Shown: piece after piece, positions 4,214-47,666 of the stretch | How positions within the stretch are numbered: position 1 is the stretch's first letter | Layout of the letters: the number at the start of each line of letters is the position of its first letter | Assembly: GCA_964016885.1 (NCBI GenBank) | Contig: OZ024741.1 | Location: 107,508,001 to 107,572,000 of the forward strand | Length of the DNA stretch: 64,000 bases | Origin: Eledone cirrhosa | Taxonomy: Eukaryota | Direction: 5' to 3' | Notes under the pieces: model-generated | The model's input: the letters and a program-made list of their open reading frames with translations, nothing else | Database searches by the model: none | What the model was told of the DNA's origin: nothing | Program-made: the position numbers and the translations under genes

Positions 4214-4218
<5 letters not shown>

Positions 4219-4657
4219 TATCCACATGACCTCTACCGACCAATCAAAATTGTTTTGACCAATAATTTTTGCTGGCGCCACTTTTCTAACATTTTAACAT
4301 AAAAACAGTCTTGGCGCAAAATCAACTTTTTACATTCACATGACCTCTACCGACCAATCAAAATTGTTTTGACCACAAGCATTTTTGCAACACAAAAATA
4401 ACGCTGGAGCCATTTTTTTAACATAAAAACAGGTAGAATTCCCAAAACTAATCAGATCAGAGCAAACAACACGGACACTCTATCTCAAAATTATTTTTGA
4501 AAAGCATTTAGAAATGCGCAACCGGTAAAAACTTAAAAACTTAAAACCACAACTGAATACTAACCCATACAATCACTAATACTCTTTTATTCCTAATTAA
4601 ACCATTTTTCAACTGTGAACAATTTGTCAGCATTTTCTATTCCGTTTACCAATATAT
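4214..4657 (+). repeat. 5' pseudo-LTR with internal ~114-bp tandem duplication
   Basis: cacatgacctctaccgaccaatcaaaattgttttgacc occurs at 4223 and 4337; the whole block recurs at 9057. Confidence 0.9.
4494..4530 (+). ncRNA. Variant minimal type I hammerhead-like motif (copies at 9337-9373 +, 11104-11140 -, 11229-11265 +)
   Basis: TTT-TTGAAAA-GCATTT ag AAATGC-GCAA-CCGG-TA-AAA. Confidence 0.6.
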
Positions 4658-4719
4658 AATAACTTGTGTGTTACACCTCTATTCTTTTAACTATCATATC
4701 CTCACACGAGATACAGAAA

Positions 4720-6030
4720 ATGCCAACAAAAACGGATACAACCCTCATCAACTCAAATGAAGAGATCCTACAGGAACTCAAGAAAATCAACACCAACCTA
4801 TCTTTGCTGGTCGACAAACTTGACTCCACAAATAAGGAAACCGCCACCGGATACAAACCCTCCGAAATCGGCGACAAACTCCAAAACCTTTGCGATACTA
4901 TCCAAACTATGTTCACTACTACCAACCCAGGAAAAACCAACGAAGAACCATGTGAGATTGATTCACACAAAATGAAAATTCGAACAATTCCAAAATGGAA
5001 CAAATCCCTCAGAGACAGAAAGTTCTCATTCTGGAAGATGATACAAAATCACAACAAAGCAGAGATATATGAAAAATGGCTTAACTCAACCCCTCTAACT
5101 CTCCCCCGTAAACTACAAATAAAGTCCATTCCAAATGAACCCGAACCTCAAAGACACCTTAGGGAAAGAATGGCATTGGAAAAAATGAAGACAGAAATTG
5201 AACTTCTTAAACTGAGGGCCCAGACAAATGAGGAAAAAATCAAAACCATCGATGAAGCGATCCTCCTGGAAATCAACAACAAAACTGAAGGCCCCAAGGT
5301 AGAGAAGATCTCCAAATTATGGAAAGGGGACTGCAACAGAGAAGAACTGAAATCCCTTCAACGCTGGGAAAAAAGTGCCGCTTGGTTCCTACACTATGAA
5401 TCGACTTTTCAAACGGATTACACCTCCAATAACCCGTTCATAAAAATAGGAAAACCCATAACTGAACCGCTCAACAACTTCTCAAACCCCCAAGCCTCAA
5501 ACAAACGAAGAAGGAAGCACCACACCGAAGATGAACTTCCCAACCTCGCTACCATAAGAAGGAACAAAAACCCAAGAAATCATCTCCCCCAGAATGACAT
5601 TTACAACTTTCCCCCTTCAAGGAGACACCATACCAAATCACTCAACTACTACGCGGATTCCTCATCGTCAAACATAGGGAAAAGATACCACCGCCATGAT
5701 AGATGCAACAACTTCCCCGCCTCAAGGGGACAGCAAGGTAATTACCATTTTCTCAACTCTCACTTCCACAATACACAACAAACCCACACCACACGATACA
5801 ACCAACAACGTAGGCCACTTATAACACCACAATACAACATGGCACATAGAAACACACACCCATACTCGCAGTACAGGAACACCCCATTCAATCTACAACC
5901 ACCAACACGAACCACATTTTACAACAACAAGGAATATAACAAACACAGGAGACCACTTAACATCAGCAGACAACCCCTCTACCCCAACCATTTTTTAGAC
6001 ACAGCACACAGATACAGGCAAACAAAATAA
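4720..6030 (+). CDS. PLE ORF1: predicted coiled-coil N-half, basic/H-N-R-rich low-complexity C-half
   Basis: Uninterrupted ORF (track 4666-6030, first ATG 4720) directly after the pLTR and overlapping the RT frame; function not recognisable. Confidence 0.75.
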   Translation: MPTKTDTTLINSNEEILQELKKINTNLSLLVDKLDSTNKETATGYKPSEIGDKLQNLCDTIQTMFTTTNPGKTNEEPCEIDSHKMKIRTIPKWNKSLRDRKFSFWKMIQNHNKAEIYEKWLNSTPLTLPRKLQIKSIPNEPEPQRHLRERMALEKMKTEIELLKLRAQTNEEKIKTIDEAILLEINNKTEGPKVEKISKLWKGDCNREELKSLQRWEKSAAWFLHYESTFQTDYTSNNPFIKIGKPITEPLNNFSNPQASNKRRRKHHTEDELPNLATIRRNKNPRNHLPQNDIYNFPPSRRHHTKSLNYYADSSSSNIGKRYHRHDRCNNFPASRGQQGNYHFLNSHFHNTQQTHTTRYNQQRRPLITPQYNMAHRNTHPYSQYRNTPFNLQPPTRTTFYNNKEYNKHRRPLNISRQPLYPNHFLDTAHRYRQTK

Positions 6031-8314
6031 CACAAGACAGGAGGAGAAACCGATAGTAATAAAAATTATCAATCTTACTAGTGCAGAACCAACACCCAAC
6101 CTTATCAACTTACTCTCCAAAGGTCTTAAATTCACACCGACCCCACTACGTCCTAACTACTATGAAATGAAGGAAGACATCACAGACTTCTGTAGAAAGT
6201 TACGACTTAGTGAACAACTATTCGACCAGTACAATGAGGATGAATCATTAGCCAGAAATAGAAGCAATTACACCCCTTCAAAAGGTAGAAATAAAATCCT
6301 GGACGAATTCTGTGAACACATCACAAACTTCCCTTACCAACACTTGCACAGACAAAAACACAAGCCAAACCTCAACAAGAAAGAATGGGAAGAATTAAAT
6401 AGATTAAAAACCGACAGAACCATTACAATTAAAGAGGCTGATAAAGGGAGTACAGTAGTCCTAATGGAGACAGAATTCTATATCAACTTAGCGCTCTCCA
6501 CTTTGGAAAACGAAACATACTACGAAAAGGCTGAACACTACAATCAACAGAAAATTATGAGAAACCTAAAAACTCTAATCAACCAATACAAAGAAGGACT
6601 CACTAACAAGGAATTCAGCTTCATCACAGACTTCACAAGTAAATCCAGCCTTTTCTACGGTATCCCTAAAGTACATAAAAGCGAATCAATCAGTAAGGCA
6701 TGCAAGGAAGCCACAGACATAGTCATCAATGTCCCCTCACCCAATGATCTCAAATTAAGACCTATAATAGCAGGCCCCGCTTGCGAAACGCACCGTCTTA
6801 GCAACTTCATTGATACCCTTCTCAAACCCTTCCTCAAGCACATCAAAAGCTATATAAGGGACGACCTAGATATGCTCAATCACCTCCCTAATATGCCACT
6901 TTCTGAACAAACCCTACTAGTGACGTTCGATGTAGTCAACCTATACTCCAACATCCCCCACAACCTAGGAATAGAAGCTATCCAATTCTGGCTGGATAAC
7001 TTCCACAATGAACTCCCACAACGCATCAAAAAAGAATTCGTGATAGAGGGACTCAAATTTATCTTGGAGAACAATTACTTCGTTTTCAATAACAAACCCT
7101 ACAGGCAGAAATCCGGGACCGCTATGGGAACGAAAACAGCCCCTACGTATGCCAACCTAGTCATGGGATACCTGGAAATCACCCTCTACACTAAAGTCCT
7201 AAACAAATTTGGAAACACCCTCCACTTACACATTGAAAGGAACTGGAAGCGATATCTAGATGACTGCTTCATCCTTTGGCACGAAAACATCGAAAAACTT
7301 AAAGAATTTCACACCCTTATAAATGGGCTCAACACAAATATTAACTTCACGATGGAATACAGCCATCAACAACTCCCCTTCCTCGACATCCTCATTAAGA
7401 TCCATAACAAAAAAATAGAAACAGACATATACTACAAGCCCACAGACTCCAAGCAATACCTCCCCTTCAACTCTTGCCACCCTAGACACGTTAAAATTAA
7501 TATTCCCTACAACTTAGCCAAGAGAATCTGTACTATAGTCTCCAATAAAAACATCTGCTACTTACGTCTACAAGAACTAAAGGACACACTCATAGGCAGG
7601 GACTACCCTGCATCACTAATTGACAATGGAATCCAACGTTCCCTAAAACTCAGTACCCAGGACCTTAGACACCCTAAAGTAAATCAACCAAAACTAAAAG
7701 CTCTTCCATACATCTCCACACACAACCCCCTCAACAACGAGGCCTTTGACACCATCCTCCAGAACATCCCTGTATTGAAAAAGGACCATAGAATGAACCA
7801 AATTCTACGAACACACGATATCATAAAGAGCAAAAGACAATCCAAGTCAATGAAAAACATCTTAACACATGCCAAAGTACTGCCAACCACAACAACGAAA
7901 CCCACAGTAAAAAAATGCGATAGACCCAACTGTGGCATTTGCATCAACCTAATAGAGGGTTCGGAATTCTATTTCAAAGATGGACAACGTTTTATAGTAA
8001 AACACAATTTCACATGTGCATCGGAAAATTTAATATATGTATTAACTTGTTCAGGTTGTCGAGAACAATACATAGGCCAGACCAAAAACAGCCTCCGCCA
8101 ACGCATGACTGTCCATAGATCCCAAATTAAAATACGGGAATACAGGAAAATACCACTGAGTGAACACATTGATACCTGCGCCGCCCAAAATCATCCCAAC
8201 TTCAGAATCTTTCCCCTCTACAAATTTAAAGATAATGCCACCCACACCCAGCGCATCAGCAAGGAATCTTACTTCATTAACAAATACAGACCCCGTCTAA
8301 ACACTTCTCCCTAA
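5999..8314 (+). CDS. PLE reverse transcriptase + GIY-YIG endonuclease
   Basis: Frame open from 5999 (IINLTS..LLSKGLKFTPTP), first ATG 6167; IKEADKG, LVTFDVVNLYSNI, GTAMGTKTAPTYANL, WKRYLDD, LPFLD, CxxxxCxxC, NLIY..C..C..YIGQT..R. Confidence 0.95.
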   Translation, partial: TQHTDTGKQNNTRQEEKPIVIKIINLTSAEPTPNLINLLSKGLKFTPTPLRPNYYEMKEDITDFCRKLRLSEQLFDQYNEDESLARNRSNYTPSKGRNKILDEFCEHITNFPYQHLHRQKHKPNLNKKEWEELNRLKTDRTITIKEADKGSTVVLMETEFYINLALSTLENETYYEKAEHYNQQKIMRNLKTLINQYKEGLTNKEFSFITDFTSKSSLFYGIPKVHKSESISKACKEATDIVINVPSPNDLKLRPIIAGPACETHRLSNFIDTLLKPFLKHIKSYIRDDLDMLNHLPNMPLSEQTLLVTFDVVNLYSNIPHNLGIEAIQFWLDNFHNELPQRIKKEFVIEGLKFILENNYFVFNNKPYRQKSGTAMGTKTAPTYANLVMGYLEITLYTKVLNKFGNTLHLHIERNWKRYLDDCFILWHENIEKLKEFHTLINGLNTNINFTMEYSHQQLPFLDILIKIHNKKIETDIYYKPTDSKQYLPFNSCHPRHVKINIPYNLAKRICTIVSNKNICYLRLQELKDTLIGRDYPASLIDNGIQRSLKLSTQDLRHPKVNQPKLKALPYISTHNPLNNEAFDTILQNIPVLKKDHRMNQILRTHDIIKSKRQSKSMKNILTHAKVLPTTTTKPTVKKCDRPNCGICINLIEGSEFYFKDGQRFIVKHNFTCASENLIYVLTCSGCREQYIGQTKNSLRQRMTVHRSQIKIREYRKIPLSEHIDTCAAQNHPNFRIFPLYKFKDNATHTQRISKESYFINKYRPRLNTSP

Positions 8315-8497
8315 GACGAACCCACAACATACACACGTCAACATACATACCTACATCAGCACACATCTCTACCCACATATAAACACAATGACACACGTAA
8401 ACACACATGCTCTATGGTGCAATACAAAAAAATATATGTGCATATATATGTATGTATATATGTATATATATATATATATATGTAGTGAAAATATATA

Positions 8498-8533
<36 letters not shown>

Positions 8534-8823
8534 GTGAATATCATTTCACACCTTTTATTGTTAAGATTGTTGATGTTCTATTAAGAGAATCGATTTTACT
8601 GAAAAAATCGAATAATGTACACCATTTTACCAGGGGGGAAAAAATACTGGTCCACCCACACACGCACACACACACACACACACATATATACACAAACACA
8701 TACACACGCGTACATCAACATACAAAGAGACTTATACACACACACACACACACGCACTTCTCCGTATAAGACAAAAGCTGAAAAATATCTTTTGACCTTC
8801 GAATGACTCTGCTGTGTGTATGT

Positions 8824-8867
<44 letters not shown>

Positions 8868-8948
8868 ATCTTAATAGCCATTTGACACACATCGCTGGTG
8901 GCTATTGTCGCAGCATCGAACACCTTACTACTACTACTACTACTACTA

Positions 8949-9014
<66 letters not shown>

Positions 9015-9056
9015 TTGTTGTGAAAGAGTCATTTCTCAATCTTGGCGCAAAACCAA

Positions 9057-9491
9057 TTTTTTATCCACATGACCTCTACCGACCAATCAAAATTGTTTTG
9101 ACCAATAATTTTTGCTGGAGCCACTTTTCTAACATTTTAACATAAAAACAGTCTTGGCGCAAAATCAACTTTTTACATTCACATGACCTCTACCGACCAA
9201 TCAAAATTGTTTTGACCACAAGCATTTTTGCAACACAAAAATAACGCTGGAGCCATTTTTTTAACATAAAAACAGGTAGAATTCCCAAAACTAATCAGAT
9301 CAGAGCAAACAGCACGGACACTCTATCTCAAAATTATTTTTGAAAAGCATTTAGAAATGCGCAACCGGTAAAAACTTAAAAACTTAAAACCACAACTGAA
9401 TACTAACCCATACAATCACTAATACTCTTTTATTCCTAATTAAACCATTTTTCAACTGTGAACAATTTGTCAGCATTTTCTATTCCGTTTA

Positions 9492-9496
<5 letters not shown>
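9057..9496 (+). repeat. 3' pseudo-LTR
   Basis: Near-identical to 4214-4657; ends in (TA)n. Confidence 0.9.
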
Positions 9497-9573
<77 letters not shown>

Positions 9574-9594
9574 CACACAAACACATGTATATAC

Positions 9595-9668
<74 letters not shown>

Positions 9669-9990
9669 TAAAACATGTCTATAGAATCCCCAGATAAAAT
9701 ATATACCATTTCCTCTCCCAATTAGCACAAATAACCATATAAAAAATCGAATAGACCAGGCTATAAGAATAAGGCTTCTATGAAGAAATCTCCAACAAAT
9801 AACCGAAACCAGCCTTTCGCGCCGGCTGCGACGGAATATTTATCGAATATTTCGACAGCGTAATCGCCCAGATATACAGTCAATTAAACAGAATTAGGTG
9901 TAAAATATACTAGGAGAAAAGAGAATACATTTATATACCTCGACCATGGTTTCGTCCGCATTTTAAGATTTCCGATAATTTTAAGATTTC

Positions 9991-10073
<83 letters not shown>

Positions 10074-10837
10074 TATATATATATGGTGCGTTATGGTCCA
10101 TCTGGTTCCTTACCACACTTCCTTCGTTATATATATATATACAATTATAAGTTTGAAGAATAGTCAGACAAAATTTACCCAATCTTTTCTTCTTAGTCCG
10201 TACAAATCAACTAGATGAATAATCATTTAAACGGAGCTATGTTTAAAATGTAACTTTGAAGAAATAACAGATAAAGGTTATCGATATTCCTTTATGAGGA
10301 ATAGTCAGAAAAAATTTACCTTGTCTTTCTTCTTAGGCCGGAGAAATTAACCAGACAAATAACAATTAAACGGAGCTAAGTCTAAAATTTAAGTTTGAAG
10401 AAAAAAATAGATAAACGTTACCAAAAATTCTCCCAGTCCGGACTGTCGATAGTTTCGCTCGTACTTTGTGGAAATGTCTAATCGTTGCATTATCTTTTCA
10501 AGGGACTCCCTCATTTAGGACTGAACATTCGAAATTGATCGCAGTTAGTAACGAATTCAAATGGGGTAAACACATCACGTGGTTAGCGGTCAAAATAGAA
10601 GTGTTGTGAAGGGTAGGCCGTTGGCAAGTAAGTTCATTGCTAGAAGAAGCAGTTAGTTACCGCCTACGGTGTACTCAAAGGTTTACTCAAAGTCATAAGG
10701 ACATATATATATATTTAAAAACAGTCACAGATACATATATGAGTGTTGTCTACCTTCAACGGTGTGGCTCGATAAGTGAATTAAGTAAATAATTATTAAT
10801 CAGAGCTATATAAAATTATAAGTTTGAAGAATAGTCA

Positions 10838-10880
<43 letters not shown>

Positions 10881-10894
10881 CATATATATATGTA

Positions 10895-10940
<46 letters not shown>

Positions 10941-10942
<2 letters not shown>

Positions 10943-11392
10943 GTTAAAAGAATAGAGGTGTAACACACAAGTTATTATATATTGGTAAACGGAATAGAAA
11001 ATGCTGACAAATTGTTCACAGTTGAAAAATGGTTTAATTAGGAATAAAAGAGTATTAGTGATTGTATGGGTTAGTATTCAGTTGTGGTTTTAAGTTTTTA
11101 AGTTTTTACCGGTTGCGCATTTCTAAATGCTTTTCAAAAATAATTTTGAGATAGAGTGTCCGTGCTGTTTGCTCTGATCTGTTTGCTCTGATCAGAGCAA
11201 ACAGCACGGACACTCTATCTCAAAATTATTTTTGAAAAGCATTTAGAAATGCGCAACCGGTAAAAACTTAAAAACTTAAAACCACAACTGAATACTAACC
11301 CATACAATCACTAATACACTTTTATTCCTAATTAAACCATTTTTCAACTGTGAACAATTTGTCAGCATGTTCTATTCCGTTTACCAATATAT
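10941..11392. mobile_element. Head-to-head inverted pair of pLTR 3' halves from the intact PLE
   Basis: 10941-11180 is the reverse complement of ~4454-4693; 11190-11392 is a forward copy; (TA)n on both sides. Confidence 0.9.
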
Positions 11393-11424
11393 ATATATAT
11401 ATATCAGACATTATATATATTATG

Positions 11425-11485
<61 letters not shown>

Positions 11486-11510
11486 TATATATATATATAT
11501 ATATATATCG

Positions 11511-11539
<29 letters not shown>

Positions 11540-11542
<3 letters not shown>

Positions 11543-12525
11543 AGAAAGTGAGGTTTTTTTTACAAAATGAAAAATAACCGAGGTGTCCTACACGAGTGGA
11601 AGTATAAAGAAAAAGGGATGAAATCGAAAATGCAACTGAAGTCTTATTTTTTTAAAAAATATATATATTTATTTGGTTCCTTTACCGGTTTCGCAGTTCT
11701 TCTGCTTTTCAAAAGGTGAGTTGAGATGGAGGGTCTGTGGTTTTTCTCACATCTGGTTGCTCTCTAAATGTTACTTGTTTTATATGGAAAAAGTGGCTCG
11801 AAAACCAGGTTTTTCGAGAAGTAATTTGATTGGTTTGTCAATAATTATAATAAATTTCGCGCCAGTTCGCGTTACAATAGTTCTTCAAATATGAGAGGGG
11901 GGGGGGGTTGTCACAGGTTGTTTTTTCATATATGAGTGTTTGAATTTCTTTTTACTTGAAAAAATGAGGCTCACGAAGGCTTTTTTGGGGTTGGTTATAA
12001 ATGAAATTTGGCTGTCACGTGAACAAGTTTTCATTACATTTTTGCGCCCTTATTTGGAAAACTATTCTGTAGTCTTTATAGTGAATGTTATGACAATGGA
12101 GAGATAGTGGTCAAGGGAAAAGGGATTGGGAGAAATGTTCTGGTTCAGTGAATATGGCCAGCTGTCAGAGTTCAGGTGTCAGAGTTCAGATTTTCTATTG
12201 AGACTGAAGATATGTCTTTATTTGTGTGCTTGTGTGTGTGTATATATGTGTGTGTGTGTGTGTATGTATGTGTGTATTGGAAGATGATTCTATTAGTAGA
12301 GATGGGGGAGGGAGTTGTGTGTGTGTGTATATGGGTGTTATGTGTGTGTGTGCGAGTATGTTAGATAGAGAGAATATATATTTTGTGTGTGTGTATATAT
12401 ATATATGTGTGTAGGAAAGTGGTTCTATTAGTAGAAATGGGGAGGATGTTGTAGGTGTGGGGGTTGTTATGTGTGTGTATGGGTGTTATGTGTGTGGGAG
12501 TATGGTTAGCATGTTAAGATGAAGA

Positions 12526-12562
<37 letters not shown>

Positions 12563-13930
12563 GTGTGTGTATGTGTGTGTGTAGGAAAATGATTCCTTTA
12601 GTAGGAATATTTTTGAATGAACATATTTTCCTGACTTTTTCGTGTTTGCTGTTGTATTGCCAGTGCAAACGTATGTTTAAGGTTTATTTAGTTCGGGTTT
12701 TTATTTTCTAAAGTAGAAGGTGTTATGTGTGTGTGTGTATGTCATATTGTGGTGTTGACATAATGTATATTAAACCTTATTTAATGTTGGTCTATATTTT
12801 TGAATAAACATATTTTCCTTATTTATTCGCATTTGTTCTGTTGTATTGTTAGCGCAAAGGTAAAATGGGAAGACTTGGAAGTTGGGTGTCTTATTACTTG
12901 CGTAAATGTCTAGATGTGCACTTAGTGGTATCTGTCTCGTGGTTGGATCTCGTAATTGTTGGCGATGAACTGTCATTCTGTTTCTGAGTGTGAGTTTAGT
13001 TTGTCCTATATAATCTTCATTGCATCCTTTACATTTAATGGCATAAAGTAGATTTTTTGATGAGCAAGTGAAGTGATTTTTTATAGTAAAATTTTGTCCT
13101 GATTTAAATGTATACGTGTTGCCTTCAATGAGGTGAGTGCAGGTTCCACAATTAGAGCGACCACATTTTTTGATACTTGGTTGTGGGTTTGTGGTAGGTA
13201 ATTTGGCATTGGTGAGTAATGTTTTCAGTGATTTTGGTTGTCTTTTGCTTTTGATTATTTTGTGTGTTTCAAGGGCTTTTTTCATTCTTGGGTTTTGTTT
13301 TAGTAGTGGGATGTTATTGTGAATAGTGTTGTAAGCTTCCGCATTTCTTGGGTTGTGTGTTGAGATATATGATAGAATATTGGATGTACCTTGAATTTGT
13401 TTCTGTTTCCGTAATTCATCAATGCCTATTGCTTTAGCCCTTTCTATTCCATTATTTATTAGTAATTCGAATTTCCTTTAATTCTTGAAGTCTTTTATTT
13501 CGCGTTTCATAATTGGAGACAATTGTGCAAATTCTTCTTGCTAGGTTAAAAGGAATGTTCGTCTTCGTGTGCTTTGGATGGTTGGAGGTGAATAGCAGAT
13601 ATTGTTTGGAATCTGTTGGTTTGTAGTGTATGTCAGTTTCGATATTTGTGTCTTTTTTTGTGATTAAGATTGTGAATTGGATGTGGTTATTGATGCCGTT
13701 TATTAAGTTTTTGAAATCCTTCAGTTGGTCGAGTGTGTGGGACCAAAGAATGAGGCAATCATCCAAGTAGCGTTTCCAATTCTCTGATAAATATTTGTGG
13801 AAGTTCAATCCGTATTTTGATTTGGACTGTTCATATATCTGGACTTCTAAGTATGCCATGACTAAGTTGGCATAAGTTGGAGCGGCTTTTGTGCCCATCG
13901 CAGTCCCCGATATTTGCTTGTAAGTATTGC
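11540..13930 (-). mobile_element. 5'-truncated, frameshifted Neptune-like PLE (second family)
   Basis: GTAMGTKAAPTYANL, WKRYLDD (13452-13925); CGRSNCGTC, NLLYAIKCKGCNEDYIGQT (12770-13285); 3' UTR runs to a TA tract. Confidence 0.9.
11679..11716 (-). ncRNA. Minimal type I hammerhead, U3/A8 core variant
   Basis: Minus strand reads CCTT-TTGAAAA-GCAG aagaa CTGC-GAAA-CCGG-TA-AAGG. Confidence 0.75.
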
Positions 13931-13967
13931 CATATATATATAGTGATAAGTATTGCCATATATATAT

Positions 13968-14176
13968 AGTGATAATAATAAATTTGAAGACTAAAATCCA
14001 AAGAGGGCTCGATAAGGATACATATATATCAAATATATAAGAACCGCAGAGCAAATATTTATTAAAATAACAGATTAAAGTTTAAGCAAAGAATCGCTGC
14101 TTTCACCCCTAACGGGATCTTCTGAAACCCGTTAAGGGTGAAAGCAGCGATTCTTTGCTTAAACTTTAATCTGTTA

Positions 14177-14183
<7 letters not shown>
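13968..14183. mobile_element. Short non-coding fold-back element; relatives at 38040-38112, 45683-45860, 47418-47620
   Basis: Arms 14060-14116 / 14128-14183; shared motif cccgttaagggtgaaagcagcgattctttgcttaaactttaatctg. Confidence 0.75.
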
Positions 14184-14239
<56 letters not shown>

Positions 14240-20684: not shown

Positions 20685-20730
20685 TATTATACATATTTCG
20701 GATGTACAACACTACGTCCTCATCAGACAA
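20685..20730 (-). ncRNA. HHR-like motif in the Naiad 3' end (second copy at ~24793-24838)
   Basis: TTGT-CTGATGA-GGAcGTA gtgttg TACaTCC-GAAA-TATG-TA; stem I register imperfect. Confidence 0.6.
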
Positions 20731-24582: not shown

Positions 24583-25637
24583 ATTTATTGAATATGTAAT
24601 CTATTGTATTGAAAAGCGCTCTACCAGTAGGGAGCAGTATATATTAAAGAGTTAAACAATATTGAATGAGTATATCAAAGAATGAGTTTTACAGTAGATT
24701 GGAAGCACTCTATGGAAAATAATTTTCTAGAGTTATTAATATTAAAATACAAATATTAATAAAATAGATGTTCTTTTTATCAATTACATTTTATTATACA
24801 TATTTCAGATGTACAACAGTACGTCCTCATCAGACAAAATATAATGATACATGACATACCCTGAGATGTTAAATGGTTAAGATTTAATCTAGGTAGTGAT
24901 TAACCTAAGAGAAAGTTTAACATTTATACCCTAATAATGAGAAAATGCGAAAACGTAATAAATTCAATAGAGAACGTGTGAGTAAGGAAAAACGTTGCTT
25001 AATATAACAGTTATAGAGATTTTAAAATGTATGATACTACAATTTACCAGGGAAAGCGGTCAATGAGAGCCGCTGAGAAAATATATATAGAGAGATGGAA
25101 TATATGTAGGAGTTTGAAAATATTTAAGTTTGAAAATATTTAATTTATGCTATTTTAGGGTGAAGAATCAAGATTTTAGGTTTAAAAAAAAAAAAAAAAA
25201 GATTGCAGGTTATTTATTAGTTTTGTAAATTCAATAAGTGTTTTAACATTTCTAAACTTCGGAATTTTATGAGGATAATCTTTAAAGGATTTAGCTGAAA
25301 ATAAAGTTTACACTGTCGAATATTTTTCTAAATGTAAGCTTTACCGAAGATATTCATTGTCAACATAAATGGTATGTAAATCTTATGAAGTATTTATTGT
25401 TAGAAATATTTAAATAACTATTATGTATATATACATATATATATATATTAATGAGCCTGTATATTTTAGGTAAATGATAACGAATATAAAAATAAGATAA
25501 TAGATTTAGGCACGTTAAAGTTAAATATATACGTATATATAAAAGGGTGTAAATGTATTGATTATTCATAGTTCAAAATAAATGATAAACAATAAATTTA
25601 ACTAAAAATTATGTATAAAATGATACATGGAGGTTTA

Positions 25638-30410: not shown

Positions 30411-30576
30411 CGGATTGTTGTAAAAAACCCAAAAAACTGTGAGTTTATTGATCAATTTAATAACATTGTTTGGTTTAGCCCCTTGCCTTGGCCGTCAGAC
30501 GTTAAGTCAACAAACTTTCGCCCCTTTCTGGGGCGAAATTTTCAATTTTCATCTAAAAACTGTAGACTTGGTGGCA

Positions 30577-32332
30577 ATGGATGCCATTTCCACCTCGCAC
30601 ACTGTCGTGAGTGCCACGACCACTAAGAAAAGTGGTGGGGGGAAGGTAGGAGTACAAAGCTTGCAGCCGTCCCCCCTCGCATCATCGAAAAACGTGGGAA
30701 ATATCGAAACCGCGAAACCAAATCCGGCAAATAATACCAGCACCAACAACAAGAACAATGACAACAACACCACAACCAACAACTGCAACAATAGCAACAC
30801 CAATATTACCAACAGTGACAGTAACACGAAAGACAACACCAAAACAACATTTGCACAGACCGTAAAACAAAACGAACTATACACGCCAATAGACATAACA
30901 AATGCTAAACAACTATTACAAGACGCAAAACAATTCGTGACTTTTGGCGAAAACGGTGCTTTTAGCATTAATTCTCCACAGGAATTACGTAGAGAGGCTG
31001 TCCTGAAAACTGTGGTTTTCAGGACAATATCGAACGTAACAAGAAAACGAGTTCAATTATCACAAAATGAAATTGAGCTGGTTCTAAAAGACGCAATGAA
31101 GGACTTAACCTTCATACAAAAAGGTAAACTGTTTGGTAGCATTTCGGTGCTGATGAACAACCAGTCAACAGCTCAAAAGTACTCGATAGCACCCATTGTG
31201 TCCCCCCACTTCACCTTTTACCCCACATACAGGGGAAAAAGGACACAAAGAATAAAAATAATGAGTATCACACCAAATGTAAACATTTGGTGGATACTAT
31301 GTGGAATAATAAACTTTGACGAAGACAAGATCATTTCAATAGGAAAGTCCTCCGGAGGTGTATTTGGTGGGACCACAGTAGAAGTTCTGGTGCAAATGAG
31401 CCCAGAACGAATAGCGAATATCCCACAACGCGTGCCTCTGGACGGGCTAACTTATATAAACATTTCAGTGGAGGGAAGGCGGCCGTCATGTTTCCACTGC
31501 TTAAGCAGGGGTCACCTGAGGGCTGCCTGTCCTCAATTAACGAGTCAAAAAAAAAAAGGCTCTTCTGCCAAACCCGAACACAACAACACAACCACCACCA
31601 CCACCACCACCACAACAACAACACGGAAAAATAACAACACAAAACACTGTTCCACCCAACCCCTCCCCACCTAAAACAAATACAAAAGCAACCACAACAA
31701 GACCCCAAAATATACCCCTCCCAAACAACACGGAAGAGGACTCCGTATCAACGTCACCCAGTTACGACGAGGGAAACCCTTTCAACAGGTGAAAAGGAAA
31801 AAAAAAAAGGCACCACATTAACAAAAATGCCACAAACACACAGCCACCAGCACAAACAGAACAAACATCACAAATAAAAAAACCCACCCCGCCCCAAAAC
31901 ATAACACGTACTATAAAACGCAAACACCCGCAAGAACAACAAACAAAAACAAACACAACACAACAAAAACTCTATACATACATTAACAAGAACAATAAAA
32001 CGTTGATGAAAGCGATAGAAAATAACCCTTCGGTGGAAACCGAAGAGATCACTTTCACCTACGCAGCGAACAAACCACACCTAATGATGATTAGGGTCCC
32101 AACGGAAAACTATGTAACTTTGAAAAAGAACCATCCAATGCATGTGGGGACCAACTGCACCAAACCACATAACAGCGTCCTATTGAGATGTTTCCCCACC
32201 CCCACACCAGACACCCACACCCCACCAAACACCCTAATCCCACCACACACTGATGTCCTCACCCCACCAAACAACCCTTCCAACACCCCCATGGAAATTG
32301 TGCAGCCTGGCCCCCAGGAGACGAAGAGGTAA
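30577..32332 (+). pseudogene. Tx1/L1-like LINE ORF1 (gag-like, zinc knuckle), broken in its low-complexity tail
   Basis: TFAQTVK, VEGRRPS-CFHCLSRGHLRAAC (CX2CX4HX4C); frame breaks after ~31550 near A-runs. Confidence 0.8.
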
Positions 32333-34968: not shown

Positions 34969-37432
34969 TTCGAAATGTTAACAAATCAAAAATATTCTCA
35001 TAATCAAAATATATACTTTATTATATATATTTCAAAGGTACTATGTTGTTTTTTCAGTACGTCCTCATCAGACAAAATATATGATTTGATATATGACACA
35101 CCGCTATGGTCTTGATTATTCAATTCCAGTATTGTCAGTGATTTATTTAATCAAATCTCAACGTTTTTATACCACGAATAATATGATAAACTTAAAGAAG
35201 AAAAGGACGTAGAGCAAATTAGAGATATAAGAGGGGGTGTAAAGAAGAGGAAAGGCAATAAATAAATAAATAAATACTTTCATAAATAGATAAATGAATA
35301 CAAAAATAAATGGATGAATGAATAAAAGAAATATATAAAATAGAAAAGAGGATAACAACAAAAGAAAAGGAAGTTGTGGGGAAAGTAAACAGGAACAAAG
35401 GGGGAGTAAAGTAAAATAAAGAAAAATAAGGGAACATCGAATAGAGGGGGATAAAAAAACCGTTGTTTTCAAATGCTAGATCAAATAAGACGTCAAATCT
35501 ATTCACATAAACAATTGAATATTTCTTTATTTGATTATGTTTTAGCTAATTATATCAAAATTAATCAGTATATATTACTTTCTATAGCAATCACATATTT
35601 AGTTTAATTATACATTTATATAATTTAATTTAACTCATTATAGATTATTATAACTTTTAATTTTAAGGTAAGATATTCTATAAATATTTTGTTACAACTT
35701 TAAAAGGAGTAATCTTTAAAGCGTATTTAAATAATTATTAAATATGTATTAAAATATAATACCATGCATATATCACCATCAATACATATAATATATTTAG
35801 ATCAGTTATTACCCAAATTATTTTATTTTATTAGGATATTCACTTTATAAAATCTTTACTATTCTTTAATTTTCATTTAATTCCTAGGATTAAACTGTAG
35901 TTATATTTACTCTCAAAAGTTTTATTTCATTAATTTAATGAATGGTTATATTTACTTCTGTATTTACTTATTTTGATATATAGATTCCTTTTAATGATAG
36001 TCAATATATTATTAATCTACATATTTCATATTTAATATATTTTAGCAAGCTAGTCAAAAAGAAAATAAATTTTTACGGACAATGTAAACAAAAGGAAGAT
36101 AACTCATTCACCATATACAAACATTTATAACTAATCTCTACTCTCACGTCCAGCGATATTTCGAAAACAATAAATCGTCAATTGTAGATATCATAATTGA
36201 TGTCTAGTTAAATATTGAACTGGCCTAATTAAAGCATAGGGTAACGAGACTATTAATGAAATTATTCTAATACATATAAATATCAATTATTACCACAATA
36301 AGGCAAAACCTATATATATATTTAAATGTCAATATTTTTTCGAAACTTGTACATTGCCTGGACAGTTTTACCAATTTTATGGTGACAACTACTAAATAAT
36401 TTTTTTTTGTTGTTGATTAAATTGTCATAATTTGTAATTATCTGTAGAATCTCAAGGTTACAAAGATTGCAAATTTGCGAAATAGTTGTGTTCCGATAGG
36501 AAGCAACATTCTTTAATTTCGTCCAAGAGATGGAGTATTTAATATTATTGTCCTTTAAAGACCATACTAATTGTGAAAGTGAAGTTGAAAATTTCTTTAT
36601 TGAAAGAATGTCTATGATTATACCACCGTTCCTTAAATTTAGACTAAGTGGCACCTATGTAGTTATACTCTTTTACCTGTTTCAGCCATCCGGCTGAGGC
36701 CATGCTGGGGCACCGCCCTTGTGAATATGGAACGCTTCACGAATTTGCGTGTCATCCTTGCGCAGTTATATATAATATTATTTGTCTTAATGGTACATTT
36801 GTATACTAGATTCTTGTCAAGGCAATTATATTGTAAAGGACATTCAGACCTCTTTCTGCAATTACATTTCTTCTCAATGTTATTTACAGACCCCAAACTA
36901 TACCCATTATTATTTAAAGGTGTTCTACTATTATTCGTGTTTAAACTATTATTATCGTTATTCCCATTAACTAATGTATTGTTATTATTATTGTTATTAT
37001 TGCTAATTATAGGTTGGTTCAAATTAAGATTTTTATTATTTATTTTTGCAATATTCATAGTTGTTGAAAAGAAAGTTTAACTGTGTGTCTATTGAAGTTA
37101 GAATAATATTTATGTGACCAAAGCTTTACATAATATATGTGCTACAGGTGTTTTAATAACTTATATCACTAATTTGCACTACATCCTTTTCTTCTTTAAG
37201 TTTATCATATTATTTGTGGTATAAAAACGTTGAGATATGATGAAATAAATCACTGCCAATACTGGAATTGAATAATCAAGACCGTAGCGGTATGTCATAT
37301 ATCAAATCATATATTCTGTCTGATGAGGACGTACTGAAAAAACAACACAGTACCTTTGAAATATATATAATAAAGTAGTATATATTTTGATTATGAGAAT
37401 ATTTTCGATTTGTTAACATTTCGAATAATATT
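34963..37432 (-). mobile_element. 5'-truncated Naiad PLE with inverted pLTR
   Basis: CNCRKRSECPLQYNCLDKNLVYKC, CNLCNLE, SCHHK; 34963-35165 is the reverse complement of 37225-37432, each arm with a CTGATGA..GAAA core. Confidence 0.85.
36668..36764 (-). pseudogene. U6: U6 snRNA 3'-fragment fused to a retroposon-like 3' tail
   Basis: Minus strand TGCGCAAGGATGACACGCAAATTCGTGAAGCGTTCCATATT matches the U6 3' end (36724-36764); TSD AGTTATA at 36661 and 36764. Confidence 0.9.
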
Positions 37433-37920: not shown

Positions 37921-38137
37921 TCGTTTTTTTCCGTTCTTTGCAAGGGGACGTTACCACGAACCAAAGTATCGTCTTCCTGTCTTCCTTCGGTGGCAACGTT
38001 TTTCGAAATATCTACTTGTGCGTTCACAGATTGATATTTTAGTTTCAGAAGATCCCGTTAAGGGTAAAAGCAGCGATACTTTGCTTAAACTTTAATCTGT
38101 TATTTTAATAAATATATATATATATATATATAGAGGG

Positions 38138-39805: not shown

Positions 39806-40185
39806 TATATACGATATTAAATAAATGGAAATTATATTTATAAAACCATATTTATTTCATTATATATATTTCAGGGATATCATATTAAAAATATGTTATG
39901 CCTTCTTCAGACAAAATACAATATAAACAGTCTTATAAATAGATAGATTCGACCAAATCAACTTTTCAAATGCAAGTCGAAGTTGAAAAGGCATGTCGAA
40001 TCTATCTATTTATAAGACTGTTTATATTGTATTTTGTCTGAAGAAGGCATAACATATTTTTAATATGATATCCCTGAAATATATATAATGAAATAAATAT
40101 GGTTTTATAAATATAATTTCCATTTATTTAATATCGTATATATACTCCAAATACTTGTTGAGTGCTTTTATATCAGTTATAAATA
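39806..40185. mobile_element. Perfect ~148-bp fold-back with an HHR core in each arm; relative at 63685-63795
   Basis: Arms 39806-39953 / 39995-40143; TTGT-CTGAAGA-AGGcATAaCAT..ATGaTATcCCT-GAAA-TATA-TA. Confidence 0.8.
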
Positions 40186-45682: not shown

Positions 45683-45858
45683 TTATTAAAATAACAGATT
45701 AAAGTTTAAAGGGTGAAAGCAGCGATTCTTTGCTTAAACTTTAATCTGTTATTTTAATAAATATTTGCTCTACGGTTCTTATATATTTGATATATATTTA
45801 TCCTTATCGAGCCCTCTTTGGATTTTAGCCTTCAAATTTATTATCATTACTATTATTA

Positions 45859-45947
<89 letters not shown>

Positions 45948-47416: not shown

Positions 47417-47615
47417 TAACGGGATCTTCTGAAACTAATTTCAGAAAGATCCTGTATTAGTATCAGAAGATCCCGTTAAGGGTGAAAGCAGCGTTTTTTG
47501 CATGAACTTTAACCTGTTATTTTAATAAATATTTGCTCTACTGTTTTATATATTTTATATATATATTATCCTTATCGAGCCCTCTTCGGATTTTAGTCTT
47601 CACATTTATTATTAT

Positions 47616-47666
<51 letters not shown>

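What the first reader, a model, noticed from the sequence alone, without database searches (positions are those of the whole stretch)
4494..11716. Two PLE families share a UUGAAAA (C3U/G8A) hammerhead core with covarying stems
Seen: both Neptune-like families carry TTGAAAA-stem II-G(A/C)AA-CCGG-TA about 125-140 nt before their TA-anchored 3' end. Stem I (TTT/AAA vs CCTT/AAGG) and stem II (GCATTT/AAATGC vs GCAG/CTGC) differ in sequence yet both pair. Known: C3-G8 is a tertiary pair in HHRs, so U3-A8 is compensatory, and minimal PLE HHRs with a palindromic helix III are thought to act as dimers. Inference: a conserved ribozyme variant that CUGANGA searches would miss.
Basis: partly seen in the sequence, partly recalled or inferred. 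Interest (0 to 1): 0.8.

Follow-up and report, generated by a model that had tools for sequence, protein, structure and literature searches.

The report
Variant hammerhead in frameshifting Penelope elements
This animal genome holds about 33,000 copies of a predicted self-cutting RNA fold with an already published core swap (U3-A8) at the ends of Penelope-like jumping genes; a young branch of about 11,000 copies carries a further core change that likely weakens cutting, and these elements likely make their enzyme by a one-base ribosome slip.

Summary
Observation confirmed: five U3-A8 hammerhead-shaped motifs lie in the pseudo-LTRs of two Penelope-like families. Genome-wide there are 32,732 matches against 26 for the control, and stems I and II covary across related families. 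The U3-A8 core is not new: PMC3088659 reports it, and PMC4209133 lists the same UUGAAAA core in Schistosoma PLEs. The two families are not independent witnesses, because their pLTRs are homologous. (1) Family A has fixed A13C in 11,007 copies, many of them young, and is predicted to be a poor ribozyme. It is a natural test of whether cleavage matters for PLE mobility. (2) These endonuclease-bearing elements have two ORFs joined in the -1 frame at U UUU UUA in four families, and 58 of 71 distant ORF1 homologues keep the matching Phe-Leu. The scan noted such a frameshift earlier on other DNA (e1-7582939). Cleavage and frameshifting are untested; no RNA run was listed.

The parts
4214..4657 (+). 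5' pseudo-LTR of family A element (444 bp), after a TA microsatellite
   Evidence: 99.55% identical to 9057-9500; ends read
4494..4530 (+). U3-A8, A13C minimal hammerhead motif; predicted cut after 4527
4720..6030 (+). ORF1: coiled-coil/helical domain (about residues 97-252 of the stop-to-stop frame) plus a disordered Arg/Asn/His-rich tail
   Evidence: no Pfam match
5991..5997 (+). Slippery heptamer T TTT TTA in the ORF1 frame, candidate -1 frameshift site
5999..8314 (+). ORF2: RT (YLDD), CX4CxxC linker, GIY-YIG endonuclease. This copy is one base short near 6040 relative to 29 of 29 other copies, so here ORF2 is not in the -1 frame of the slippery site
8315..9056 (+). 3' UTR containing microsatellites
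9057..9500 (+). 3' pseudo-LTR of family A, ending at a TA microsatellite
9337..9373 (+). U3-A8, A13C hammerhead motif; predicted cut after 9370
10940..11184 (-). Truncated family A pLTR with the optional tail (about 40 nt); left arm of a head-to-head inverted pair; hammerhead at 11104-11140
11187..11393 (+). Truncated family A pLTR, right arm of the inverted pair; hammerhead at 11229-11265
11679..11716 (-). Family B U3-A8 hammerhead with intact GAAA and 4-bp stems I and II; predicted cut after 11683
11541..14081 (-). 5'-truncated, frameshifted family B element (RT and GIY-YIG fragments at 12770-14081, 3' UTR, pLTR)

Best explanation
The motif is a type I minimal hammerhead fold with the known U3-A8 core, inherited in the pseudo-LTRs of a group of TA-targeting Neptune-like retrotransposons, that would cut slowly and only as a dimer through its palindromic ACCGGU helix, with family B likely active and family A (A13C) likely much weaker. 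Shown: motif, copy numbers, pLTR location, stem covariation, element anatomy. Inferred: a transcript holding both pLTRs (motifs 4,843 nt apart here) pairs its two ACCGGU palindromes; a minority is cut after GUA and could be circularised. Reverse transcription starts about 130 or 170 nt downstream of the cut site, so the template is uncut tandem RNA or a circle, never a linear 3'-cut RNA. Cleavage is therefore probably not rate-limiting, which would let A13C spread. Also inferred: ORF1 is made in excess as an RNA-binding coiled-coil protein, and ORF1-RT-EN arises by -1 slippage at U UUU UUA.
For: 32,732 pattern matches vs 26 control; the unpaired or C3 versions are rare, C3 223 and U3.G8 162. 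Stems I and II were not part of the search pattern yet pair in five families with different sequences: stem I first pair U-A, A-U or G-C; second U-A or A-U; third U-A or C-G. On 12 chosen representatives 83.3% of cells pair vs 59.1% shuffled (0 of 500) and 28-36% when slid. Family B dimer fold -21.1 kcal/mol vs -15.0 for two monomer MFEs; hammerhead monomers are unfavourable, -0.4 to +8.7. Copies found through the ORF junction, not through the motif, also carry it (10 of 10 long A copies). Variable 5' partial tandems and two 3' ends, at 9500 or with a tail of about 41 nt, match PLE anatomy (PMC3846280, PMC11167929 passages). Frameshift: 29 of 29 other A copies and 26 of 30 pattern-found loci have the RT N-terminus in the -1 frame; 58 of 71 full-length ORF1 homologues have FL in the last 45 residues vs 4 of 71 in two control windows and a shuffle maximum of 15, always after a residue that can end in U; a distant element (39% RT identity) has T TTT TTG with the same -1 overlap.
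Against: No cleavage or expression data. Core and helix III invariance in the alignment are fixed by my search pattern and are no evidence. Part of the stem II 'covariation' is a register shift from an extra U.U pair in families D and E. Stem I is weak in C and D (third pair formed in 4 of 20 and 1 of 20 copies; one D subfamily has 1 bp). Predicted hammerhead dimers of C, D and E are less stable than two monomer MFEs, and A is marginal (-8.7 vs -7.6) with a competing hairpin over the core. In a pairwise mutagenesis of a hammerhead only the C3G/G8C swap rescued activity (PMC9901934 passage). No stimulatory RNA structure follows the slippery site in 4 of 4 families. 4 of 30 loci are not in the -1 frame, and one family E copy has an AUG before the conserved RT motif.
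Confidence: 0.62

Rival explanations
1. All families, A included, are active dimeric ribozymes. C13 is tolerated or rescued in the dimer or by ORF1 protein as a chaperone, and double cleavage plus circularisation is the obligatory route to the template.
For: After A13C arose, the core stayed intact across A, A' and A'' subfamilies while downstream flanks fell to 73-77% identity. In a flank-anchored search 99 of the 100 listed copies keep TTGAAAA and 98 keep C13. A13 changes are said to cost only 10-100 fold (PMC4075628 passage). Partial tandems with a tail fit a circular template.
Against: Two core departures plus a 3-bp all-AU stem I and a competing hairpin. In an Anolis PLE, hammerhead mutants did not affect insertion in vitro and no RNA ends mapped to the cut site (PMC11167929 passage).
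Confidence: 0.2
2. The motif no longer cuts in any of these families. It is kept as a non-catalytic RNA element: a dimerisation palindrome or a binding site for RT or ORF1 that positions reverse-transcription start sites.
For: Weak stem I in C and D, poor predicted dimers in C, D and E; U3-A8 not rescuing in one screen; the same ACCGGU palindrome in all families found.
Against: The shared palindrome is partly my search bias. Family B has good stems and a favourable dimer. U3-A8 is reported active in vitro (PMC3088659).
Confidence: 0.13
3. The shared motif is only inherited sequence, a decayed relic with no present selection.
For: A and B pLTRs are homologous; copies within a family are near-identical through recent amplification.
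Against: Between A and D, E or C the flanks are at shuffle level (46-54% vs 52%) while stems still pair with different sequences.
Confidence: 0.05

Closest known systems
U3-A8 minimal hammerheads of Schistosoma mansoni Cercyon PLEs (family Sm3 and row S. mansoni(4); Cervera and De la Pena 2014, PMC4209133)
   Same: Type I fold in pLTRs, U3-A8 core, one listed row with the identical UUGAAAA, short stem I, predicted dimer, thousands of dispersed copies
   Different: Here helix III is a 6-nt palindrome (ACCGGU) rather than absent; copy number is about 25-fold higher; family A adds A13C, which none of the rows of Fig. S3 shows (all GAAA)
PLE hammerheads with a small palindromic helix III (Drosophila, Aedes, rotifer, shrimp; PMC4209133; Lunse et al. 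2017, known to me only by title and through a review)
   Same: Palindromic helix III, stem I as short as 2 bp, dimer model
   Different: The listed ones have canonical C3-G8 and GAAA
Neptune clade EN+ PLEs (Craig et al. 2021, PMC8557442)
   Same: RT with C-terminal GIY-YIG, CX2-5CxxC linker, CCHH motif, TA microsatellite targets, partial tandems, inverted pLTRs, optional tail
   Different: Described as single-ORF; these have a separate ORF1 of about 440 aa joined in the -1 frame. The Fig. 1 legend mentions an ORF1 frameshift with pseudoknot for some PLE types; I could not see the figure
Athena/Terminon two-ORF PLEs and retroviral gag-pol -1 frameshift (U UUU UUA of HIV-1 type; recalled)
   Same: Coiled-coil ORF1 upstream of RT; identical heptamer class
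   Different: Two-ORF PLEs are described as lacking the endonuclease (PMC6431247 passage); no pseudoknot or stem-loop is predicted here

Membership tests
Type I minimal PLE hammerhead | Position 3-8 Watson-Crick pair (C-G or covaried U-A) in a YUGANRA box | tested here: met
   U3-A8 32,732 vs U3.G8 162 and C3 223
Type I minimal PLE hammerhead | G12-A13-A14-A15.1 box | tested here: met
   Families B, C, D, E: A13 in 38 of 38, 19 of 20, 20 of 20, 12 of 12 copies
Type I minimal PLE hammerhead (family A only) | Invariant A13 | tested here: not met
   C13 in 11,007 matches; 44 exact family A copies with another base, 10 of them A; 98 of 100 listed in a flank-anchored search
Type I minimal PLE hammerhead | Stems I and II pair and covary | tested here: met
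   stem I only 1-2 bp in C and D
Type I minimal PLE hammerhead | Palindromic helix III and NUH cut site | tested here: met
   ACCGGU then A in the 5 window motifs, found without fixing the palindrome
Type I minimal PLE hammerhead | Located in the pLTR of a PLE | tested here: met
   A, B, D, E linked to RT/EN in the same orientation; a C subfamily in an inverted pLTR beside an RT; the main C family had no RT in the 7-kb stretches fetched
Type I minimal PLE hammerhead | Self-cleavage as a dimer | not testable with these tools
   Energies only
Rfam hammerhead families | Score against covariance models | tested here: not met
   No hammerhead model at E<=10 on either motif
Neptune clade PLE | RT plus C-terminal GIY-YIG with CCHH | tested here: met
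Neptune clade PLE | CX2-5CxxC linker between RT and EN | tested here: met
   CDRPNCGIC at residue 640; in 120 of 120 listed relatives; Nematis shares it
Neptune clade PLE | (TA)n targets, pLTR partial tandems, inverted repeats, optional tail | tested here: met
Neptune clade PLE | Phylogenetic placement with named Neptune rather than Nematis references | not tested
   The tree holds no named reference
Canonical EN+ PLE | Single ORF | tested here: not met
   Two overlapping ORFs in A, B, D, E and in L352
Programmed -1 frameshift site | X XXY YYZ heptamer in the upstream frame with the downstream ORF in -1 | tested here: met
Programmed -1 frameshift site | 3' stimulatory stem-loop or pseudoknot | tested here: not met
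   70 nt downstream fold no better than shuffles in 4 of 4 families; pseudoknots and long-range pairing not modelled
Programmed -1 frameshift site | Fusion product in translation | not testable with these tools
   No ribosome or reporter data

The most novel reading that the evidence does not exclude
A widespread, undescribed two-ORF lineage of endonuclease-bearing Penelope-like elements uses a retrovirus-style, structure-free -1 frameshift. In this genome its young family A amplified to about 11,000 copies with a catalytically crippled hammerhead (U3-A8 plus A13C) taken by pLTR exchange from family B, showing that the PLE hammerhead is kept as a dimerisation or recognition element rather than as a cutter.
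Probability: 0.3. Interest if true: 0.75.

Novelty: new variant of a known kind. Interest (0 to 1): 0.5.

Why it matters
The role of hammerheads in Penelope-like elements is stated to be unclear (PMC8557442 passage). Sister families with near-identical folds, one with GAAA and one with GCAA, both at more than 10,000 copies, make the question testable with a few short RNAs. The U3-A8 set is missed by CUGANGA and Rfam searches, so hammerhead counts in such genomes are underestimates. The two-ORF, -1 frameshift layout extends a translation strategy known from retroviruses to endonuclease-bearing PLEs, and its ORF1 family (536 clusters at 50% identity) has no Pfam model.

Tried and rejected
RNA evidence: no RNA holder listed; laying 3 contig runs of unrecorded kind only confirmed the extra base near 6040 and the two 3' ends. 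Metagenome pattern scan: 119 loci, 0 with an RT or ORF1 hit, 1 of 121 matches with both stems, so chance hits; the pattern was too loose. No relative in viral contigs. Rfam on the whole window: 202 matches, 150 shown, none a hammerhead. ORF1: no Pfam family common to 100 homologues, PDB sequence hits only to coiled coils, no Foldseek match at E<=0.001, best VIA Z 8.8 to generic helical bundles, atlas best score 0.75; no fused ORF1-RT protein of 798-2275 aa, weak evidence. I first took the window's ORF1/ORF2 offset for a possible one-off defect; other copies showed that the two-ORF layout is the rule and the window copy is the deviant. I first read family E copy L133 as -1; one search showed it is in frame 0, while L345 and L350 of family E are -1. 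An alternative register using the GAAA in loop II of family A was rejected by eye: no stem II forms. A small CUGAGGA..GCAA set (5 of the 100 listed) lacks convincing stems and was not pursued. Literature searches with no hit: hammerhead+C3U+G8A, hammerhead+A13C, hammerhead+A13+C13+mutational+catalytic core, Penelope+Neptune+ribosomal frameshift. Searches listed no paper describing a frameshift in EN+ PLEs. Lunse 2017, Arkhipova 2006 and 2017, Gladyshev 2007 and two hammerhead reviews could not be read, so absence from print is not established.

Full report
1. Observation. 60 local dinucleotide shuffles gave a mean of 0.017. Stem I is 3 bp in A and 4 bp in B; stem II is 5 bp (not 6) in A and 4 bp in B. 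The predicted cut lies about 127 and 142 nt before the TA-anchored end. Rfam names no hammerhead at either site.

2. The elements. Family A is a full-length element at 4214-9500 with two 444-bp pLTRs, ORF1 (4720-6030) and ORF2 with RT, a CX4CxxC linker and GIY-YIG. A head-to-head pair of truncated pLTRs lies at 10940-11393, one arm with the optional tail. Family B is a 5'-truncated, frameshifted copy on the minus strand, 52-55% identical to A in protein. Ten long A copies elsewhere show variable 5' partial tandems and 3' ends at 9500 or about 41 nt further, the known PLE anatomy (PMC3846280 and PMC11167929, passages). The linker and TA targeting fit Neptune; I did not test placement against named references. 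The 29 best-matching other A copies differ from the window copy by 7-50 substitutions over 1.1-3.4 kb. These were chosen as the best of 1,516 candidates, so they show that young copies exist, not the age of the whole family.

3. Genome-wide. In the 3.0-Gb assembly G000 the pattern TTGANAA N9-24 GMAACCGGTA has 32,732 matches against 26 for the reversed control. 3,043 have a non-A at position 7 and reveal families C, D and E. The C3 form has 223 matches (control 28) and U3.G8 162 (control 15); most listed ones are point mutants of the same families. One group of canonical CUGANGA hammerheads counts 5,699 (control 108); other canonical groups were not counted.

4. Covariation. Among 114 distinct copies in the fetched loci, the first stem I pair is U-A (A-D), A-U or G-C (E); the second U-A (A, B) or A-U (C, D, E); the third U-A (A), C-G (B, E) or unpaired (C, D). 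On 12 representatives that I chose, 83.3% of cells pair against 59.1% in shuffles (0 of 500) and 28-36% when slid; all 7 stem I and II pairs show double changes. Caveats: the core and palindrome were fixed by my pattern; the families are related; part of the stem II signal is a register shift; and two of the five measures did not beat the shuffles (105 and 140 of 500). A and B are not independent: their pLTRs are 72% identical over 123 nt up to the motif. By RT, A groups with D and E (100/100) and not with B, yet its pLTR aligns only with B. I infer a pLTR exchange; this was not tested further.

5. A13C. Family A and its subfamilies read GCAA for GAAA in 11,007 matches. Only 44 exact A copies have another base there, and 98 of the 100 listed copies from a search anchored on the flanks (10,149 matches) have C13. 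B, C, D and E have A13, so C13 is likely derived. A13 changes are reported to cost 10-100 fold (PMC4075628, one passage citing earlier work). The family A dimer is marginal (-8.7 vs -7.6 kcal/mol for two monomer MFEs) and a hairpin competes for its core; the B dimer is favourable (-21.1 vs -15.0); C, D and E dimers are less stable than their monomer folds. The motif stayed 94-97% identical across A subfamilies while downstream flanks are 73-77% identical. This suggests continued selection, though these copies were picked by the motif.

6. ORF1 and the frameshift. 29 of 29 other A copies have one more base near 6040 than the window copy, which puts ORF2 in the -1 frame over T TTT TTA at 5991-5997; contigs of two of three public runs show the same base. 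A pattern for the junction found 114 sites (control 0). Of 30 examined, 26 have the RT N-terminal motif in the -1 frame (23 without a stop), 2 in frame 0 and 2 in +1. Families B, D and E share the site. In A, B and D the first AUG of the -1 frame lies after the conserved motif; one E copy has an earlier AUG. ORF1 has 536 relatives at 50% clustering. Of the 151 retrieved, 71 are 330-480 aa; 58 of these have FL in the last 45 residues (controls 4 and 4; shuffles mean 6.3, max 15), always after a residue with an NNU codon. A distant element, L352, has ORF1, T TTT TTG, a -1 ORF2 and a canonical C3-G8 hammerhead, so the frameshift is wider than U3-A8; L353 has one long ORF and canonical hammerheads. 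No structure follows the slippery site. AlphaFold2 gives a confident helical domain at about residues 97-252 and a disordered tail with no specific fold match. An earlier AI note (e1-7582939), read after my own tests, reports the same signal in a coral-associated PLE; it is not independent evidence.

7. Mechanism. Shown: anatomy, counts, covariation, frames. Inferred: dimerisation of two pLTR motifs through ACCGGU and slow cleavage after GUA. Because inserted copies end 130-170 nt beyond the cut site, the RT template must be uncut tandem RNA or a circle. In an Anolis PLE, hammerhead mutants did not affect insertion in vitro (PMC11167929, passage). I put 0.62 on 'B likely active, A weak, cleavage not rate-limiting', 0.20 on 'all active and required', 0.13 on 'non-catalytic in all' and 0.05 on 'relic'.

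8. What is known. U3-A8 in natural hammerheads: PMC3088659 (section 8 and passages). In PLE hammerheads: PMC4209133 (main text parts 1-2 of 4, supplement parts 1-2 of 3), with about 1,300 hits in S. mansoni and a UUGAAAA row. Dimer model: the same paper and PMC6765202 (passages). Only the G-C swap rescued in PMC9901934 (passages; its supplement gave legends only). EN+ PLEs are described as single-ORF (PMC8557442 passages and supplement search; PMC6431247 passage), but the Fig. 1 legend of PMC8557442 mentions an ORF1 frameshift for some type, and I could not see the figure. ORF1 esterases are noted in some PLEs (PMC3905857, PMC5408684 passages), so upstream ORFs in EN+ PLEs may not be unheard of. 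bioRxiv 10.64898/2026.07.22.740005 (part 1 of 5), PMC6155905 and PMC11014351 (term searches) added nothing. Lunse 2017, which by my recall lists about 150,000 PLE hammerhead variants, was not held and may already include this variant.

9. Verdict. The motif is real and abundant, and the headline variant is published. What I did not find in print is the fixed A13C in a young high-copy family and the -1 frameshifted ORF1 in EN+ elements. New variant of a known kind; interest 0.5.

Noticed in passing
window 20688-20726 -, 24795-24833 -, 35022-35071 -, 37320-37369 +, 39861-39910 -, 40038-40087 +: Six canonical CUGANGA type I hammerheads with TATATA or TATGTA helix III in other repeat families, some in inverted pairs; 5,699 similar pattern matches genome-wide; no RT hit near them in the window.
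   Followed up: partly
window 9250-9372 vs 11681-11799: Family A has D/E-like RT but a B-like pLTR, suggesting exchange of the hammerhead-bearing module between PLE families.
   Followed up: partly
window 4514-4526: A13C creates a second palindrome (TGCGCA) next to ACCGGT in family A; it could offer another dimer register or a DNA motif.
   Followed up: no
L306, L308, L339: Another repeated canonical hammerhead family (CUGACGA ... GAAA CTAG TA) lies near these PLE copies.
   Followed up: no
L351, L352, L353; proteins P0178, P0210, P0215, P0226, P0233: PLE contigs and proteins are filed in bacterial MAGs and symbiont assemblies, probably host DNA carried along.
   Followed up: no
window 14064-14189: A long perfect inverted repeat of another repeat family abuts the truncated 5' end of the family B copy; related pieces lie at 38042-38115, 45709-45883 and 47460-47655.
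   Followed up: no
window 30424-31674 +: A 416-codon stop-to-stop frame with no Pfam match.
   Followed up: no
L140-L155: The main family C motif had no RT in the 7-kb upstream stretches fetched; it may be an old or non-autonomous family.
   Followed up: partly
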